DNA from: the human T2T-CHM13v2.0 reference genome, Homo sapiens
Strand: one strand, 5' to 3'
DNA: 64,000 bases
NCBI RefSeq assembly: GCF_009914755.1
Contig: NC_060937.1
The notes under the pieces were generated by a model. The model searched no databases. It was not told the origin of the DNA and was given only the letters and a program-made list of their open reading frames with translations. The position numbers and the translations under genes were made by a program. Below are positions 33,661 through 43,147 of this stretch, one piece after another; position 1 is the stretch's first letter; every line of letters starts with the position of its first letter.

Positions 33661-33675
33661 CTCTTTTCCCTTTCT
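33661..33675. repeat. Target-site duplication, left copy (ctcttttccctttct)
   Basis: Identical 15-mer at 43133-43147, abutting the L1 5' end. The empty site reads TTTCT/GA, a degenerate L1 endonuclease site. Confidence 0.95.
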
Positions 33676-33695
33676 TTCTTTTTTTTTTTTTTTTT

Positions 33696-33713
33696 ACTGG
33701 TCAAGTCTTATTC
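33696..33713 (-). other. 18-nt L1 3' transduction between two poly(A) tracts
   Basis: The - strand reads L1 end-A17-GAATAAGACTTGACCAGT-A-rich tail-TSD. Confidence 0.85.
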
Positions 33714-33933
33714 TTTTTTTTTTTTTTTTTAATACTTTAAGTTTTAGGGTACATGTGCACATTGTGCAGGTTAGTTACATATGTATACATGTGCCATGCT
33801 GGTGTGCTGCACCCACTAACACGTCATCTAGCATTAGGTATATCTCCCAATGCTATCCCTCCCCCCTCCCCCCACCCCACCACAGTCCCCAGAGTGTGAT
33901 ATTCCCCTTCCTGTGTCCATGTGATCTCATTGT

Positions 33934-35240
33934 TCAATTCCCACCTATGAGTGAGAATATGCGGTGTTTGGTTTTTTGTTCTTGTGATAGTTTACTGAGA
34001 ATGATGGTTTCCAATTTCATCCATGTCCCTACAAAGGACATGAACTCATCATTTTTTATGGCTGCATAGTATTCCATGGTGTATATGTGCCACATTTTCT
34101 TAATCCAGTCTATCATTGTTGGACATTTGGGTTGGTTCCAAGTCTTTGCTATTGTGAATAATGCCACAATAAACATACGTGTGCATGTGTCTTTATAGCA
34201 GCATGATTTATAGTCATTTGGGTACATACCCAGTAATGGGATGGCTGGGTCAAATGGTATTTCTAGTTCTAGATCCCTGAGGAATCGCCACACTGACTTC
34301 CACAATGGTTGAACTAGTTTACAGTCCCACCAACAGTGTAAAAGTGTTCCTATTTCTCCACATCCTCTCCAGCACCTGTTGTTTCCTGACTTTTTAATGA
34401 TTGCCATTCTAACTGGTGTGAGATGATATCTCATAGTGGTTTTGATTTGCATTTCTCTGACGGCCAGTGATGATGAGCATTTTTTCATGTGTTTTTTGGC
34501 TGCATAAATGTCGTCTTTTGAGAAGTGTCTGTTCATGTCCTTCGCCCACTTTTTGATGGGGTTGTTTGTTTTTTTCTTGTAAATTTGTTTGAGTTCATTG
34601 TAGATTCTGGATATTAGCCCTTTGTCAGATGAGTAGGTTGCGAAAATTTTCTCCCATGTTGTAGGTTGCCTGTTCACTCTGATGGTAGTTTCTTTTGCTA
34701 TGCAGAAGCTCTTGAGTTTAATTAGATCCCATTTGTCAATTTTGGCTTTTGTTGCCATTGCTTTTGGTGTTTTGGACATGAAGTCCTTGCCCACGCCTAT
34801 GTCCTGAATGGTAATGCCTAGGTTTTCTTCTAGGGTTTTTATGGTTTTAGGTCTAACGTTTAAATCTTTAATCCATCTTGAATGGATTTTTGTATAAGGT
34901 GTAAGGAAGGGATCCAGTTTCAGCTTTCTACATATGGCTAGCCAGTTTTCCCAGCACCATTTATTAAATAGGGAATCCTTTCCCCATTGCTTGTTTTTCT
35001 CAGGTTTGTCAAAGATCAGATAGTTGTAGGTATGCGGCATTATTTGAGGGCTCTGTTCTGTTCCATTGATCTATATCTCTGTTTTGGTACCAGTATCATG
35101 CTGTTTTGGTTACTGTAGCCTTGTAGTATAGTTTGAAGTCAGGTAGTGTGATGCCTCCAGCTTTGTTCTTTTGGCTTAGGATTGACTTGGCGATGCGGGC
35201 TCTTTTTTGGTTCCATATGAACTTTAAAGTAGTTTTTCCA
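33934..35240 (-). pseudogene. L1 ORF2 C-terminal part (after residue ~841), disrupted
   Basis: [17 protein letters not shown]..., TGG>TGA stop at 35096-35098, ~2-bp deletion near 35045, then an open 368-aa stretch with the CCHC region ending [11 protein letters not shown]. Confidence 0.93.
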
Positions 35241-41147: not shown

Positions 41148-41210
41148 TATGATGTTAGCTGGTGATTTTGCTCGTTAGTTGATGCAGTTTCTTCCTAGTC
41201 TCGATGGTCT

Positions 41211-42227
41211 TTACATTTTGGCATGATTTTGCAGCGGCTGGTACTGGTTGTTCCTTTCCATGTTTAGCGCTTCCTTCAGGAGCTCTTTTAGGGCAGGCCT
41301 GGTGGTGACAAAATCTCTCAGCATTTGCTTGTCTACAAAGTATTTTATTTCTCCTTCACTTATGAAGCTTAGTTTGGCTGGATATGAAATTCTGGGTTGA
41401 AAATTCTTTTATTTAAGAATGTTGAATATTGGCCCCCACTCTCTTCTGGCTTGTAGGGTTTCTGCCGAGAGATCCGCTGTTAGTCTGATGGGCTTCCCTT
41501 TGAGGGTAACCCGACCTTTCTCTCTGGCTGCCCTTAACATTTTTTCCTTCATTTCAACTTTGGTGAATCTGACAATTATGTGTCTTGGAGTTGCTCTTCT
41601 CGAGGAGTATCTTTGTGGCATTCTCTGTATTTCCTGAATCTGAACGTTGGCCTGCCTTGCTAGATTGGGGAAGTTCTCCTGGATAATATCCTGCAGAGTG
41701 TTTTCCAACTTGGTTCCATTCTCCACATCACTTTCAGGTACACCAATCAGACGTAGATTTGGTCTTTTCACATAGTCCCATATTTCTTGGAGGCTTTGCT
41801 CATTTCTTTTTATTCTTTTTTCTCTAAACTTCCCTTCTCGCTTCATTTCATTCATTTCATCTTCCATTGCTGATACCCTTTCTTCCAGTTGATCGCATCA
41901 GCTCCTGAGGCTTCTGCATTCTTCACATAGTTCTCGAGCCTTGGTTTTCAGCTCCATCAGCTCCTTTAAGCACTTCTCTGTATTGGTTATTCTAGTTATA
42001 CATTCTTCTAAATTTTTTTCAAAGTTTTCAACTTCTTTGCCTTTGGTTTGAATGTCCTCCCGTAGCTCAGAGTAATTTGATCGTCTGAAGCCTTCTTCTC
42101 TCAGCTCATCAAAATCATTCTCCATCCAGCTTTGTTCCGTTGCTGGTGAGGAACTGCATTCCTTTGGAGGAGGAGAGGCACTCTGCGTTTTAGAGTTTCC
42201 AGTTTTTCTGTTCTGTTTTTTCCCCAT
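41211..42227 (-). pseudogene. L1 ORF1 (338 codons) with two premature stops
   Basis: MGKKQNRKTGNSKTQ...KHAKM* frame; TGA at 41898-41900 (CGA>TGA) and TAA at 41409-41411 (GAA>TAA). Confidence 0.95.
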
Positions 42228-43133
42228 CTTTGTGGTTTTATCTACTTTTGGTCTTTGATGATAGTGATGTACAGATGGGTTTTCGGTGTGGATGTCCTTT
42301 CTGGTTGTTAGTTTTCCTTCTAACAGACAGGACCCTCAGCTGCAGGTCTGTTGGAATACCCTGCCGTGTGAGGTGTCAGTGTGCCCCTGCTGGGGGGTGC
42401 CTCCCAGTTAGGCTGCTCGGGGGTCAGGGGTCAGGGACCCACTTGAGGAGGCAGTCTGCCAGTTCTCAGATCTCCAGCTGCGTGCTGGGAGAACCACTGC
42501 TCCCTTCAAAGCTGTCAGACAGGGACATTTAAGTCTGCAGAGGTTACTGCTGTCTTTTTGTTTGTCTGTGCCCTGCCCCCAGAGGTGGAGCCTACAGAGG
42601 CAGGCAGGCCTCCTTGAGCTGTGGTGGGCTCCACCCAGTTCGAGCTTCCCGGCTGCTTTGTTTACCTAAGCAAGCCTGGGCAATGGCGGGCCCCCCTCCC
42701 CCAGCCTCGCTGCCGCCTTGCAGTTTGATCTCAGACTGCTGTGCTAGCAATCAGCGAGATTCCGTGGGCGTTAGGACCCTCCGAGCCAGGTGTGGGATAT
42801 AGTCTCGTGGTGCGCCGTTTTTTAAGCCGGTCTGAAAAGCGCAATATTCGGGTGGGAGTGACCCGATTTTCCAGGTGCGTCCGTCACCCCTTTCTTTGAC
42901 TCGGAAAGGGAACTCCCTGACCCCTTGCGCTTCCCAGGTGAGGCAATGCCTCGCCCTGCTTTGGCTCGCACACGGTGCGCGCACACACTGGCCTGCGCCC
43001 ACTGTCTGGCACTCCCTAGTAAGATGAACCCGGTACCTCAGATGGAAATGCAGAAATCACCCATCTTCTGCGTCGCTCACGCTGGGAGCTGTAGACCAGA
43101 GCTGTTCCTATTCGGCCATCTTGGCTCCTCCCC
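42228..43133 (-). promoter_or_regulatory. L1 5'UTR internal sense promoter and antisense promoter; ORF0 (ATG 42683, + strand) frameshifted
   Basis: YY1 site CAAGATGGCCG intact (43113-43123), CpG-rich. ORF0 MAGPPPPASLPPCSLISDCCASNQRDSVGV is shifted by an extra T near 42771 and stops at 42802. Confidence 0.85.
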
Positions 43134-43147
43134 TCTTTTCCCTTTCT
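43133..43147. repeat. Target-site duplication, right copy
   Basis: ctcttttccctttct, identical to 33661-33675. Confidence 0.95.

What the first reader, a model, noticed from the sequence alone, without database searches (positions are those of the whole stretch)
33661..43147. Full-length L1 whose transcription unit contains a 3.4-kb antisense copy of spliced DGKZ mRNA
Seen: one 15-bp TSD brackets the L1 5'UTR (YY1 site intact), ORF1, the 5' part of ORF2, the inverted DGKZ retrocopy, the rest of ORF2 and the poly(A). Known: the L1 5'UTR is an internal Pol II promoter, and pseudogene-derived antisense RNA can pair with parental mRNA to give dsRNA/endo-siRNA. Inference: when this L1 is de-repressed (germline, early embryo, tumours), its sense transcript would carry a near-perfect antisense DGKZ sequence. 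That would tie DGKZ regulation or dsRNA sensing to L1 methylation state. The ~9.5-kb RNA also keeps a poly(A) end, so it could be mobilised in trans as a cargo-carrying L1.
Basis: partly seen in the sequence, partly recalled or inferred. Interest (0 to 1): 0.8.

Follow-up and report, generated by a model that had tools for sequence, protein, structure and literature searches.

The report
DGKZ pseudogene nested backwards in L1
A young full-length L1 retrotransposon on human chromosome 13 was later interrupted by a backwards, intron-free copy of the DGKZ gene (the annotated pseudogene DGKZP1); the structure is real, but nothing shows that it makes a regulatory antisense RNA.

Summary
An exact 15-bp target-site duplication (33661-33675 and 43133-43147) brackets a full-length L1 on the minus strand. 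The L1's ORF2 is split by a plus-strand, fully spliced (31-exon) copy of DGKZ mRNA, which is RefSeq DGKZP1. The copy is 99.09% identical to the parent gene on contig 11.

New details:
- The L1 is L1PA2-like and not coding-competent. ORF1 has two stops and the ORF2 C-part is frameshifted.
- The L1 carries an 18-nt 3' micro-transduction.
- The DGKZ copy did not enter by canonical L1 retroposition. It lacks the last ~88 nt of the 3'UTR and any poly(A). At most 3-5 bp is duplicated. It has one extra non-templated G at a complete 5' end, and one A is lost at the site. This matches an end-joining-type cDNA patch (class 2 templated insertion, endonuclease-independent-like).
- CpG decay suggests the L1 is older than the DGKZ patch (roughly 5-9 versus 2-5 Myr). 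The conversion rates are recalled and the counts are small.

No second copy of either junction or of the retrocopy exists in this genome, so mobilisation as a cargo-carrying L1 is unsupported. The antisense DGKZ stretch adds no canonical poly(A) hexamer, so a read-through L1 RNA is possible. No expression evidence exists, and the one published "RNA editing" hint is explained by parental DGKZ reads. Regulation of DGKZ remains speculation.

The parts
33661..33675 (.). Left copy of the 15-bp target-site duplication of the L1
   Evidence: Exact match to 43133-43147. Only 2 matches in the window against 0.03 expected.
33676..33695 (-). Terminal poly(A) tail of the inserted L1 RNA (A16 then AGAA on the minus strand)
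   Evidence: Read. It lies inside the TSD.
33696..33713 (-). 18-nt unique segment between two A-tracts: a probable 3' micro-transduction from the source locus
   Evidence: The only other exact copy in the genome is at G000:C4:44052498-44052515, a site with no L1.
33714..33733 (-). The L1's own A-tract (A17) and an ATTAAA hexamer at the end of the 3'UTR
33734..35240 (-). L1 3'UTR and the C-terminal part of ORF2 (stop codon at 33934-33936). About 57 codons next to the insert are out of frame with 4 stops, between a 1-nt loss at the junction and a 2-nt deletion near 35048. The remaining 368 codons are open.
35241..35241 (+). One non-templated G at the 5' end of the DGKZ copy. The parent has C at that place. 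Consistent with reverse transcription of the mRNA cap (recalled interpretation).
35242..38629 (+). DGKZP1: a spliced 31-exon cDNA copy of the 929-aa-isoform DGKZ mRNA. It starts at the parent's exon-1 start and is 3'-truncated by about 88 nt, with no poly(A). The last 3 bases (38627-38629, CCA) may instead be duplicated L1 sequence. An 894-codon ORF at 35343-38027 is ended early by a 14-nt deletion at about 37990.
38630..41147 (-). L1 ORF2 N-terminal part: 839 open codons with the endonuclease and reverse-transcriptase domains. The frame stops 2 codons into the insert (38622-38624).
41148..41210 (-). L1 inter-ORF spacer (63 nt)
   Evidence: Coordinates.
41211..42227 (-). L1 ORF1 (338 codons plus stop) with in-frame stops at codons 110 and 273
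42228..43132 (-). L1 5'UTR (about 906 nt, 35 CpG). The complete 5' end and the first 35 nt are identical to the commonest base of 12 relatives.
43133..43147 (.). Right copy of the 15-bp TSD. Its first C could equally be the last G of the L1 5' end.

Best explanation
Two successive, unrelated insertion events left a composite relic.

Step 1 (shown by anatomy). A full-length L1PA2-like element, about 6.07 kb, was inserted on the minus strand by ordinary target-primed reverse transcription. The nick was at 5'-TTCT/GA-3' on the plus strand. The insertion has a 15-bp TSD and a poly(A) tail. It also carries an 18-nt 3' micro-transduction, which shows that the template RNA ran slightly past the source element's own A-tract.

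Step 2 (shown by anatomy; mechanism inferred). Later, a cDNA of the 929-aa-isoform DGKZ mRNA was joined into ORF2 of that L1, just after the RT domain and in the opposite orientation. The cDNA was complete to the cap at its 5' end but lacked the last ~88 nt and the poly(A) tail. The junctions look like end joining rather than canonical L1 integration:
- no poly(A);
- only 3 bp (CCA) duplicated;
- 2-3 nt of microhomology at the 3' junction;
- one non-templated G at the 5' junction;
- one A lost from the target.
This is the signature of a class 2 templated sequence insertion, or an endonuclease-independent 'cDNA patch' of a DNA break.

Since then both parts have decayed as methylated, neutrally evolving DNA.

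As a consequence of the geometry, any full-length sense transcript from the L1's internal promoter would contain antisense DGKZ. Whether such RNA is made, and whether it does anything, is not shown. I rate the locus as most probably inert.
For: L1 insertion hallmarks:
- TSD: 2 matches in the window against 0.03 expected.
- Poly(A) tail and an 18-nt unique piece between two A-tracts inside the TSD.
- Complete 5' end.
- The expected domain order.

DGKZ part is RNA-derived:
- 31 of 31 exon blocks are collinear with the gene on C11, and GT/AG flanks every one of the 30 introns removed.
- The parent mRNA continues about 88 nt further, to an AGTAAA signal and the cleavage region. The copy stops at ...TGTCATT with no A-run.
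- The copy starts exactly where the parent match starts, preceded by a G that the parent lacks.

Target site:
- 12 of 12 related full-length L1s read TTGGAAAAAAC across the insertion point.
- Here TGG/CCA stands on both sides and one A is missing.

Order of events:
- ORF2 is split with no other loss.
- Only one DGKZ retrocopy exists in the genome, and neither junction recurs.
- CpG-transition loss is 12 of about 95 CpGs in the L1 against 12 of 214 in the DGKZ copy (Fisher p = 0.04).

Neutral decay:
- 21 of 31 differences from the parent lie at CpG sites. Twelve are losses in the copy and 3 are losses in the parent.
- pN/pS is 0.37, from 12 nonsynonymous and 10 synonymous differences. That fits a free copy compared with a constrained parent.

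Definitions of canonical processed pseudogenes, ENi insertions and class 2 TSIs are taken from passages of PMC4859970 and PMC5110952.
Against: - No outgroup genome could be consulted, so the order and dates rest on one genome, small counts and recalled substitution rates.
- The L1 'private' differences were scored against 12 relatives that are mostly of a younger type (9 of 12 carry ACA and 2 carry ACG at the recalled 3'UTR diagnostic). Some of these differences may therefore be subfamily differences. This inflates the L1's apparent age.
- The 3-bp duplication can also be read as a blunt insertion with a 4-nt filler, or as DGKZ extending to 38629 with one substitution.
- The nick site TTGG/AAAAAA has the A-rich 3' side that L1 endonuclease favours. 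An endonuclease-dependent event with internal microhomology priming is therefore not excluded.
- Class 2 TSIs are described as short fragments, whereas this one is 3.4 kb.
- Inertness is not shown: the 5'UTR is nearly unchanged, and the insert adds no poly(A) hexamer.
Confidence: 0.8

Rival explanations
1. Same two steps, but the DGKZ cDNA entered by L1 endonuclease-dependent TPRT that primed internally. ORF2p nicked the L1 sense strand at TTGG/AAAAAA. The 3' end ...TGG then annealed by 3 nt (including one G-U pair) to UCA in the DGKZ 3'UTR, instead of to the poly(A) tail.
For: - The target is A-rich immediately 3' of the nick.
- The primer-derived CCA in place of the parental TCA explains the single mismatch at 38627 without a later mutation.
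- The cDNA is full-length to the cap, as expected of a processive ORF2p product.
Against: - Two G residues stand at the -1 and -2 positions of the nick, where the consensus has T. The consensus is TTTT/A as quoted in PMC5110952.
- There is no poly(A). [quoted passage not shown]
- The duplication is 3 bp, against the 5 bp or more used to define ORF2p-mediated class 1 events.
Confidence: 0.25
2. The composite arose at the source L1 locus. It was then retrotransposed as one 9.5-kb RNA, in trans, to chromosome 13. The single 15-bp TSD then brackets a mobilised 'cargo-carrying L1'.
For: - One TSD encloses everything.
- The only other exact copy of the transduced 18-mer, on C4, is an empty site. The presumed source element is thus absent from this genome and cannot be inspected.
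Against: - It needs the same non-canonical DGKZ insertion, plus trans-mobilisation of an ORF2-disrupted RNA, plus full-length reverse transcription of 9.5 kb, plus loss of the source.
- No second copy of either junction or of the retrocopy exists in 3.1 Gb.
- L1 proteins act preferentially on the RNA that encodes them (recalled: cis preference).
Confidence: 0.05
3. When the L1 promoter is demethylated, it produces a chimeric RNA whose antisense DGKZ segment pairs with DGKZ mRNA. That yields dsRNA or endo-siRNA, or triggers dsRNA sensing, and so couples DGKZ to L1 methylation state.
For: - The geometry is right.
- The complementarity is 99.09%, with a 746-nt perfect stretch.
- There are 0 poly(A) hexamers in the antisense segment.
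- The 5'UTR keeps 35 CpGs, against 36-40 in 12 relatives, and has an unchanged first 35 nt.
- Retrocopy-derived trans natural antisense transcripts are an accepted category (passages of PMC8071448).
Against: - No transcript is annotated on the minus strand here (hub table).
- 5 of 5 papers that mention DGKZP1 give no strand-specific expression data.
- The 'editing' site is explained by parental reads.
- 16 canonical poly(A) hexamers precede the insert.
- The CpG decay pattern indicates habitual germline methylation.
- The copy shows no sign of selection.
Confidence: 0.07

Closest known systems
Class 2 templated sequence insertions / endonuclease-independent (ENi) retrotransposition used as a patch at a DNA break (Onozawa and Aplan, PMC5110952; Morrish et al. 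2002 as cited there and in PMC4859970)
   Same: RNA-derived insert with no poly(A) tract, no TSD of 5 bp or more, microhomology, a non-templated nucleotide, a microdeletion at the junctions and 3' truncation.
   Different: - The insert is 3.4 kb and complete to the mRNA cap. Class 2 events are described as short fragments, and ENi L1 insertions as typically truncated at both ends.
- Three base pairs are duplicated.
Canonical L1-mediated processed pseudogene
   Same: Intron-less copy of a spliced mRNA, present once, decaying neutrally. It was probably made by L1 reverse transcriptase.
   Different: Lacks the poly(A) tail, the 7-20-bp TSD and the TTTT/AA-type site that define the class (passages of PMC4859970).
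Retrocopy-derived trans natural antisense transcripts and pseudogene-derived endo-siRNAs (review PMC8071448; the mouse-oocyte endo-siRNA work is recalled, not read here)
   Same: A retrocopy lies antisense inside another transcription unit, so the host transcript would be complementary to the parent mRNA.
   Different: - The host unit here is a retrotransposon with its own methylation-controlled promoter.
- No transcript has been shown.
L1 3' transduction
   Same: Unique non-L1 sequence between the element's A-tract and a second poly(A), all inside the TSD (described in PMC4859970).
   Different: - It is only 18 nt long.
- The one matching genomic site carries no L1 in this assembly.

Membership tests
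Full-length L1 inserted by TPRT | Target-site duplication flanking the element | tested here: met
   Exact 15 bp. 2 matches in the window against 0.03 expected.
Full-length L1 inserted by TPRT | 3' poly(A) tail and a T-rich/A nick site | tested here: met
   A16 tail at 33680-33695. The reconstructed empty site gives TTCT/GA on the primed strand.
Full-length L1 inserted by TPRT | 5'UTR, ORF1, ORF2 (EN, RT) and 3'UTR in order, with a complete 5' end | tested here: met
   Pfam Transposase_22, Exo_endo_phos and RVT_1. Alignments to other full-length copies start at query base 1-4 in 37 of 39 matches outside the window.
L1PA2 subfamily (as opposed to L1HS) | Subfamily-diagnostic bases in the 3'UTR | tested here: inconclusive
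   - This copy has GTG and AAAGT.
- 9 of 12 relatives have ACA and 2 have ACG, and 10 of those 11 read AGAGT (L015, an ACG copy, reads AAAGT).
- One relative, L026, has GCG and AAAGT like this copy.
- The meaning of these triplets is recalled, not taken from a call.
Canonical processed pseudogene | Intron-less copy of a spliced mRNA | tested here: met
   31 exons joined. All 30 removed introns are flanked by GT/AG in the parent.
Canonical processed pseudogene | Poly(A) tail at the 3' end | tested here: not met
   The copy ends about 88 nt before the parent's cleavage region. No A-run is present.
Canonical processed pseudogene | TSD of about 7-20 bp at an L1 endonuclease site | tested here: not met
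   At most CCA (3 bp; up to 5 bp counting ambiguous bases). The site is TTGG/AAAAAA.
Class 2 templated sequence insertion / ENi-type cDNA patch | No poly(A), no poly(A) signal at the insert end, no TSD of 5 bp or more | tested here: met
   (0 AATAAA, ATTAAA or AGTAAA on the sense strand of the copy). Definition.
Class 2 templated sequence insertion / ENi-type cDNA patch | End-joining marks: microhomology, non-templated bases, microdeletion | tested here: met
   - 2-3 nt of shared bases at 38625-38629.
- An extra G at 35241.
- One A fewer than in 12 of 12 relatives.
Class 2 templated sequence insertion / ENi-type cDNA patch | Short insert, or insert truncated at both ends | tested here: not met
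   The insert is 3.39 kb with a complete 5' end.
Retrocopy-derived trans-NAT / endo-siRNA source | A transcript that contains the retrocopy in antisense | not testable with these tools
   No expression data are available here. 0 of 5 DGKZP1 papers give such data.
Retrocopy-derived trans-NAT / endo-siRNA source | An effect on the parent gene | not testable with these tools
   Needs an experiment.
L1 3' transduction | The transduced sequence matches the flank of a source L1 | tested here: inconclusive
   One exact 18-mer at C4:44052498. It is preceded by AAAA, giving TTTT/AC on the other strand, but no L1 is there. The reversed-pattern control gave as many hits at 1 mismatch or fewer (3 against 3).

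The most novel reading that the evidence does not exclude
DGKZP1 is a hominin-lineage cDNA patch that placed 3.4 kb of almost perfect antisense DGKZ under an L1PA2 promoter. The sequence-based age is about 2-5 Myr, so it may be absent from chimpanzee. Whenever young L1s are demethylated (early embryo, germline, tumours), a chimeric L1-antisense-DGKZ RNA would be made. That RNA would pair with DGKZ mRNA and lower DGKZ or trigger dsRNA sensing, giving a lineage-specific link between L1 control and diacylglycerol signalling.
Probability: 0.05. Interest if true: 0.6.

Novelty: new member of a known kind. Interest (0 to 1): 0.3.

Why it matters
As it stands, this is an annotated pseudogene inside a repeat.

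Its modest value is as a clean, datable, germline-fixed example of a long RNA-templated patch. The patch is capped at the 5' end and truncated at the 3' end, and it was joined without poly(A) priming. That bears on how reverse-transcribed mRNA can repair breaks in the human germline.

It also gives a practical warning. 15 of the 31 copy-versus-parent differences would mimic A-to-G or T-to-C 'editing' when parental DGKZ reads are assigned to DGKZP1. The one published editing call at this locus is explained in the same way: its G-form query 29-mer is identical in the copy and in the parental mRNA.

If the L1 promoter really drives antisense DGKZ, the locus would be an unusually mappable reporter of single-locus L1 activity, with a built-in target gene.

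Tried and rejected
- **Whole-genome file.** It was not available. I used searches of the own genome and fetched stretches instead.
- **The repeat finder.** It listed 10 direct-repeat families but not the TSD. The TSD was then confirmed with the DNA search.
- **Exon-junction heuristic.** My first version misplaced the last intron and produced a false cluster of 6 mismatches plus a 3-nt gap. Reading the parent sequence showed a single 14-nt deletion in the copy, and the statistics were recomputed.
- **Template switching during L1 reverse transcription, or twin priming.** Rejected. The L1 continues on the far side of the insert at the same position, with a 3-bp duplication, and the insert is a different RNA in the opposite orientation.
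- **Selection on the 894-codon ORF.** Rejected. pN/pS of 0.37 is what a neutral copy compared with a constrained parent gives. A 14-nt deletion removes the C-terminus, and with about 22 coding substitutions the absence of a stop is unremarkable.
- **RNA editing at DGKZP1 as evidence of dsRNA.** Rejected.
- **An unmethylated CpG island in the GC-rich insert** (GC 64.5%, CpG o/e 0.57). Not supported. 12 of 214 CpGs were lost by transition in the copy against 3 in the parent.
- **Literature.** DGKZP1 appears in 5 papers: one with a miRNA-site table, one review table, one PheWAS and one GWAS that use it as a nearest-gene label, and one with the editing example. 'DGKZ' with 'retrocopy' gave 1 paper. 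'DGKZ' with 'pseudogene' and 'LINE-1' gave 1 irrelevant paper. None describes the nested structure.
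Full report
**1. What is there**

The window is chr13:43152001-43216000 of T2T-CHM13 (hub note; confirmed, which places the window at G000:C13).

The 15-mer CTCTTTTCCCTTTCT occurs exactly twice in the 64 kb, at 33661-33675 and 43133-43147. Chance expectation is 0.03, and 0 of 100 shuffles gave two matches.

Everything between the two copies reads, on the minus strand, as one L1:
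- a complete 5' end, GGGGAGGAGCCAAGATGGCCG...;
- a 906-nt 5'UTR;
- ORF1;
- a 63-nt spacer;
- ORF2 with endonuclease and reverse-transcriptase domains;
- the 3'UTR and the A-tails.

ORF2 is interrupted after codon 839, just past the RT domain (Pfam RVT_1 ends at residue 773). The interruption is 3.39 kb of GC-rich DNA (59-70% GC against about 40% in the L1) lying on the plus strand.

**2. The insert is a spliced DGKZ cDNA**

A search of the window's own genome with 35242-38629 gave 36 matches:
- the window itself;
- 31 collinear blocks in G000:C11:46503635-46536535, at 95-100% identity;
- 4 weak blocks (77-89%) on C7, which I take to be a paralogue.

There is no other retrocopy.

I rebuilt the spliced parent from the fetched loci. 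There are 31 exons, and every one of the 30 introns is flanked by GT...AG.

The copy differs from the spliced parent by 31 substitutions in 3388 aligned bases (99.09% identity). It also has a 14-nt deletion at about 37990 and a 1-nt deletion at about 38291.

From the same ATG the parent encodes 929 residues ending ...QETAV. The copy keeps an 894-codon frame (35343-38027), which the 14-nt deletion shifts near the end. Pfam finds C1, DAGK_cat, DAGK_acc, a DGKI-like domain and ankyrin repeats. This is RefSeq's DGKZP1.

**3. How the L1 got there**

Removing the element and one TSD copy gives the empty site ...TAATGT-CTCTTTTCCCTTTCT-GAACCC.... The primed strand was therefore nicked at TTCT/GA, an acceptable L1 endonuclease site.

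At the 3' end the element reads ...CTTAAAGTATTAAA-A17, then 18 unique nucleotides, then A16-AGAA, all inside the TSD. That is the layout of a very short 3' transduction (described in PMC4859970, passages seen).

The 18-mer has one other exact copy in 3.1 Gb, at C4:44052498-44052515. That copy is preceded by AAAA, giving TTTT/AC on the other strand, and followed by AAA, but no L1 is present there. The support is weak. The reversed-pattern control gave as many hits at 1 mismatch or fewer (3 against 3). My own estimate is about 0.1 exact hits expected by chance. If real, the source element was an allele that is absent from this genome.

**4. What kind of L1 it is, and its state**

The 5'UTR plus ORF1 matched thousands of candidates (6627 candidates, 40 scored). 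The best matches were about 98% identical, and 37 of the 39 outside the window start at query base 1-4.

I fetched 12 full-length relatives. They are 1.28-1.58% different from this copy, and 0.2-1.3% different from each other.

At a 3'UTR position that I recall as diagnostic:
- 9 of the 12 relatives read ACA and 2 read ACG, and 10 of those 11 read AGAGT just before the tail (L015, an ACG copy, reads AAAGT);
- one relative, L026, reads GCG with AAAGT;
- this copy reads GTG with AAAGT.

I therefore call it L1PA2-like, not L1HS. The labels are recalled rather than tested.

Differences from the relatives:
- At 53 alignment columns at least 11 of 12 relatives agree against it: 12 CpG transitions, 23 other transitions, 14 transversions and 4 indel columns.
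- At 38 columns all 12 relatives agree against it.

Coding state:
- ORF1 has in-frame stops at codons 110 and 273.
- The ORF2 N-part is open for 839 codons and ends 2 codons into the insert.
- The ORF2 C-part is out of frame for about 57 codons with 4 stops, between a 1-nt loss at the junction and a 2-nt deletion. It is then open for 368 codons to the normal stop.

The element is full-length but encodes neither protein intact.

**5. How the DGKZ copy got there: not the usual way**

A canonical processed pseudogene has a poly(A) tail, a TSD and an L1 endonuclease site (PMC4859970). None of these is present here.
- The parent mRNA runs about 88 nt further, through an AGTAAA signal. The copy stops at ...CTGTCATT and is followed directly by L1 sequence, with no A-run.
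- The 5' end coincides with the start of the parental match. It is preceded by a G where the parent has C. I read this as a cap-derived G (recalled interpretation).
- All 12 relatives read GAATTGGAAAAAACTAC across the point of insertion. Here TGG (CCA on the plus strand) stands on both sides, at 35238-35240 and 38627-38629, and one A is missing.
- The right junction shares 2-3 bases between DGKZ (...CATT|TCA) and L1 (...TT|CCA).

The junctions thus show a duplication under 5 bp, microhomology, one non-templated base and a 1-nt loss. That is how class 2 templated sequence insertions and endonuclease-independent events are defined (PMC5110952; PMC4859970).

I favour capture of a DGKZ cDNA at a break by end joining. 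An endonuclease nick at TTGG/AAAAAA followed by internal microhomology priming remains a live variant (confidence 0.25).

The unusual points are the length, 3.4 kb against the 'short fragment' of the definition, and the complete 5' end.

**6. Order and age**

The L1 continues on both sides of the insert with no other loss. Only one DGKZ retrocopy exists, and neither junction (90-mers centred on each) recurs in the genome:
- one search scored 40 of 485 candidates, and none but the window spans the junction;
- one search scored 39 of 39, with the same result.

The simplest history is L1 first and DGKZ later, in place.

Of the 31 copy-versus-parent differences, 21 lie at CpG sites:
- 12 transitions that destroy a CpG in the copy;
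- 3 that destroy one in the parent;
- 6 transversions.

The other 10 lie elsewhere, in about 2960 non-CpG bases.

The L1 lost 12 of about 95 CpGs by transition, against 12 of 214 in the DGKZ copy (Fisher p = 0.04). This fits an older L1.

On those figures the DGKZ copy comes out at roughly 2-5 Myr and the L1 at roughly 5-9 Myr. The counts are small. The L1 figure is an upper bound, because most relatives are of a younger type.

The asymmetric CpG loss also shows that the GC-rich insert (CpG o/e 0.57) has behaved as methylated DNA in the germline, not as a protected CpG island.

**7. Is the copy under selection?**

In the coding part there are 10 synonymous and 12 nonsynonymous differences and no stop (pN/pS 0.37). 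This departs from equal rates in both lineages (binomial p = 0.02). It is what one expects when a free-running copy is compared with a constrained parent. The 14-nt frameshift also removes the C-terminus. I see no case for a coding function.

**8.

The geometry is as stated: a sense L1 transcript would run 43133 to 33676 and contain the reverse complement of DGKZ mRNA.

Counts of AATAAA and ATTAAA hexamers on that strand:

| Segment | Hexamers |
|---|---|
| 5'UTR | 0 |
| ORF1 and ORF2 N-part | 16 |
| 3.39-kb antisense DGKZ | 0 |
| Beyond the insert | 5 |

The insert therefore adds no canonical termination signal, but the usual internal L1 signals precede it. The 5'UTR keeps 35 CpGs (relatives 36-40) and differs from the commonest base of the relatives at 17 positions, none within the first 35 nt.

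Nothing in the sequence forbids the RNA, and nothing shows that it exists.

The literature holds 5 papers naming DGKZP1:
- a table of shared miRNA sites (PMC3484327, passage);
- a review table repeating it (PMC8071448);
- two association studies using it as a locus label;
- one paper showing 'rs3794434_DGKZP1' as an A-to-G editing site with allele fractions 0.00 and 1.00 (PMC6887657, Dataset S1).

That last count was made by matching 29-mers. In this genome the G-form 29-mer is present identically in the retrocopy and in the spliced parent. Ordinary DGKZ mRNA therefore explains the 100% G, and it is not evidence for dsRNA. More generally, 15 of the 31 copy-versus-parent differences would look like A-to-G or T-to-C changes if parental reads were placed on the copy.

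Retrocopies that lie antisense in a host transcript are an accepted source of trans natural antisense RNA (PMC8071448). The idea is a new candidate of a known kind, not a new mechanism.

The suggestion that the 9.5-kb unit could be mobilised has no support.

**9. Verdict**

The most useful additions are:
- the non-canonical, end-joining-type origin of DGKZP1;
- the relative dating;
- the micro-transduction;
- the removal of the only published hint of editing.

The regulatory reading stays untested and, in my judgement, unlikely (about 5-7%). Supplements of the other papers were not consulted. bioRxiv supplements were closed and might hold locus-level L1 expression tables that bear on point 8.

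Noticed in passing
L012 (G000:C4:44050998-44054015), positions 1497-1521: The only other exact genomic copy of the 18-nt segment transduced by this L1. It is preceded by AAAA (TTTT/AC on the other strand) and followed by AAA, yet no L1 is present. It may be the empty allele of the source locus.
   Followed up: partly
window 37713-37741: The 29-mer used in PMC6887657 to call 'A-to-G RNA editing' at rs3794434 in DGKZP1. In this genome both the retrocopy and the parental DGKZ mRNA carry G, so the reported 100% G is explained by parental reads.
   Followed up: yes
window 35242-38629 against the spliced parent: Unusual spectrum of differences. 6 of 31 are C-to-G or G-to-C changes (binomial p = 0.003 against an assumed, recalled 10%), and 6 transversions fall at CpG sites beside 15 CpG transitions. 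No explanation was tested.
   Followed up: partly
window 38622-41147, minus strand: The N-terminal 839 codons of ORF2 (endonuclease plus reverse transcriptase) are still open and end 2 codons into the insert. If transcribed and translated, the locus could make a C-terminally truncated ORF2 protein.
   Followed up: no
window 35048-35240, minus strand: A 1-nt loss at the DGKZ junction and a 2-nt deletion about 190 nt downstream together restore the ORF2 frame, leaving about 57 out-of-frame codons with 4 stops between them.
   Followed up: partly
window 35343-38027, plus strand: DGKZP1 keeps an 894-codon open frame with all DGK domains. No promoter was carried along, since the copy starts at the parental transcription start. 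pN/pS against the parent is 0.37, compatible with neutrality of the copy.
   Followed up: yes
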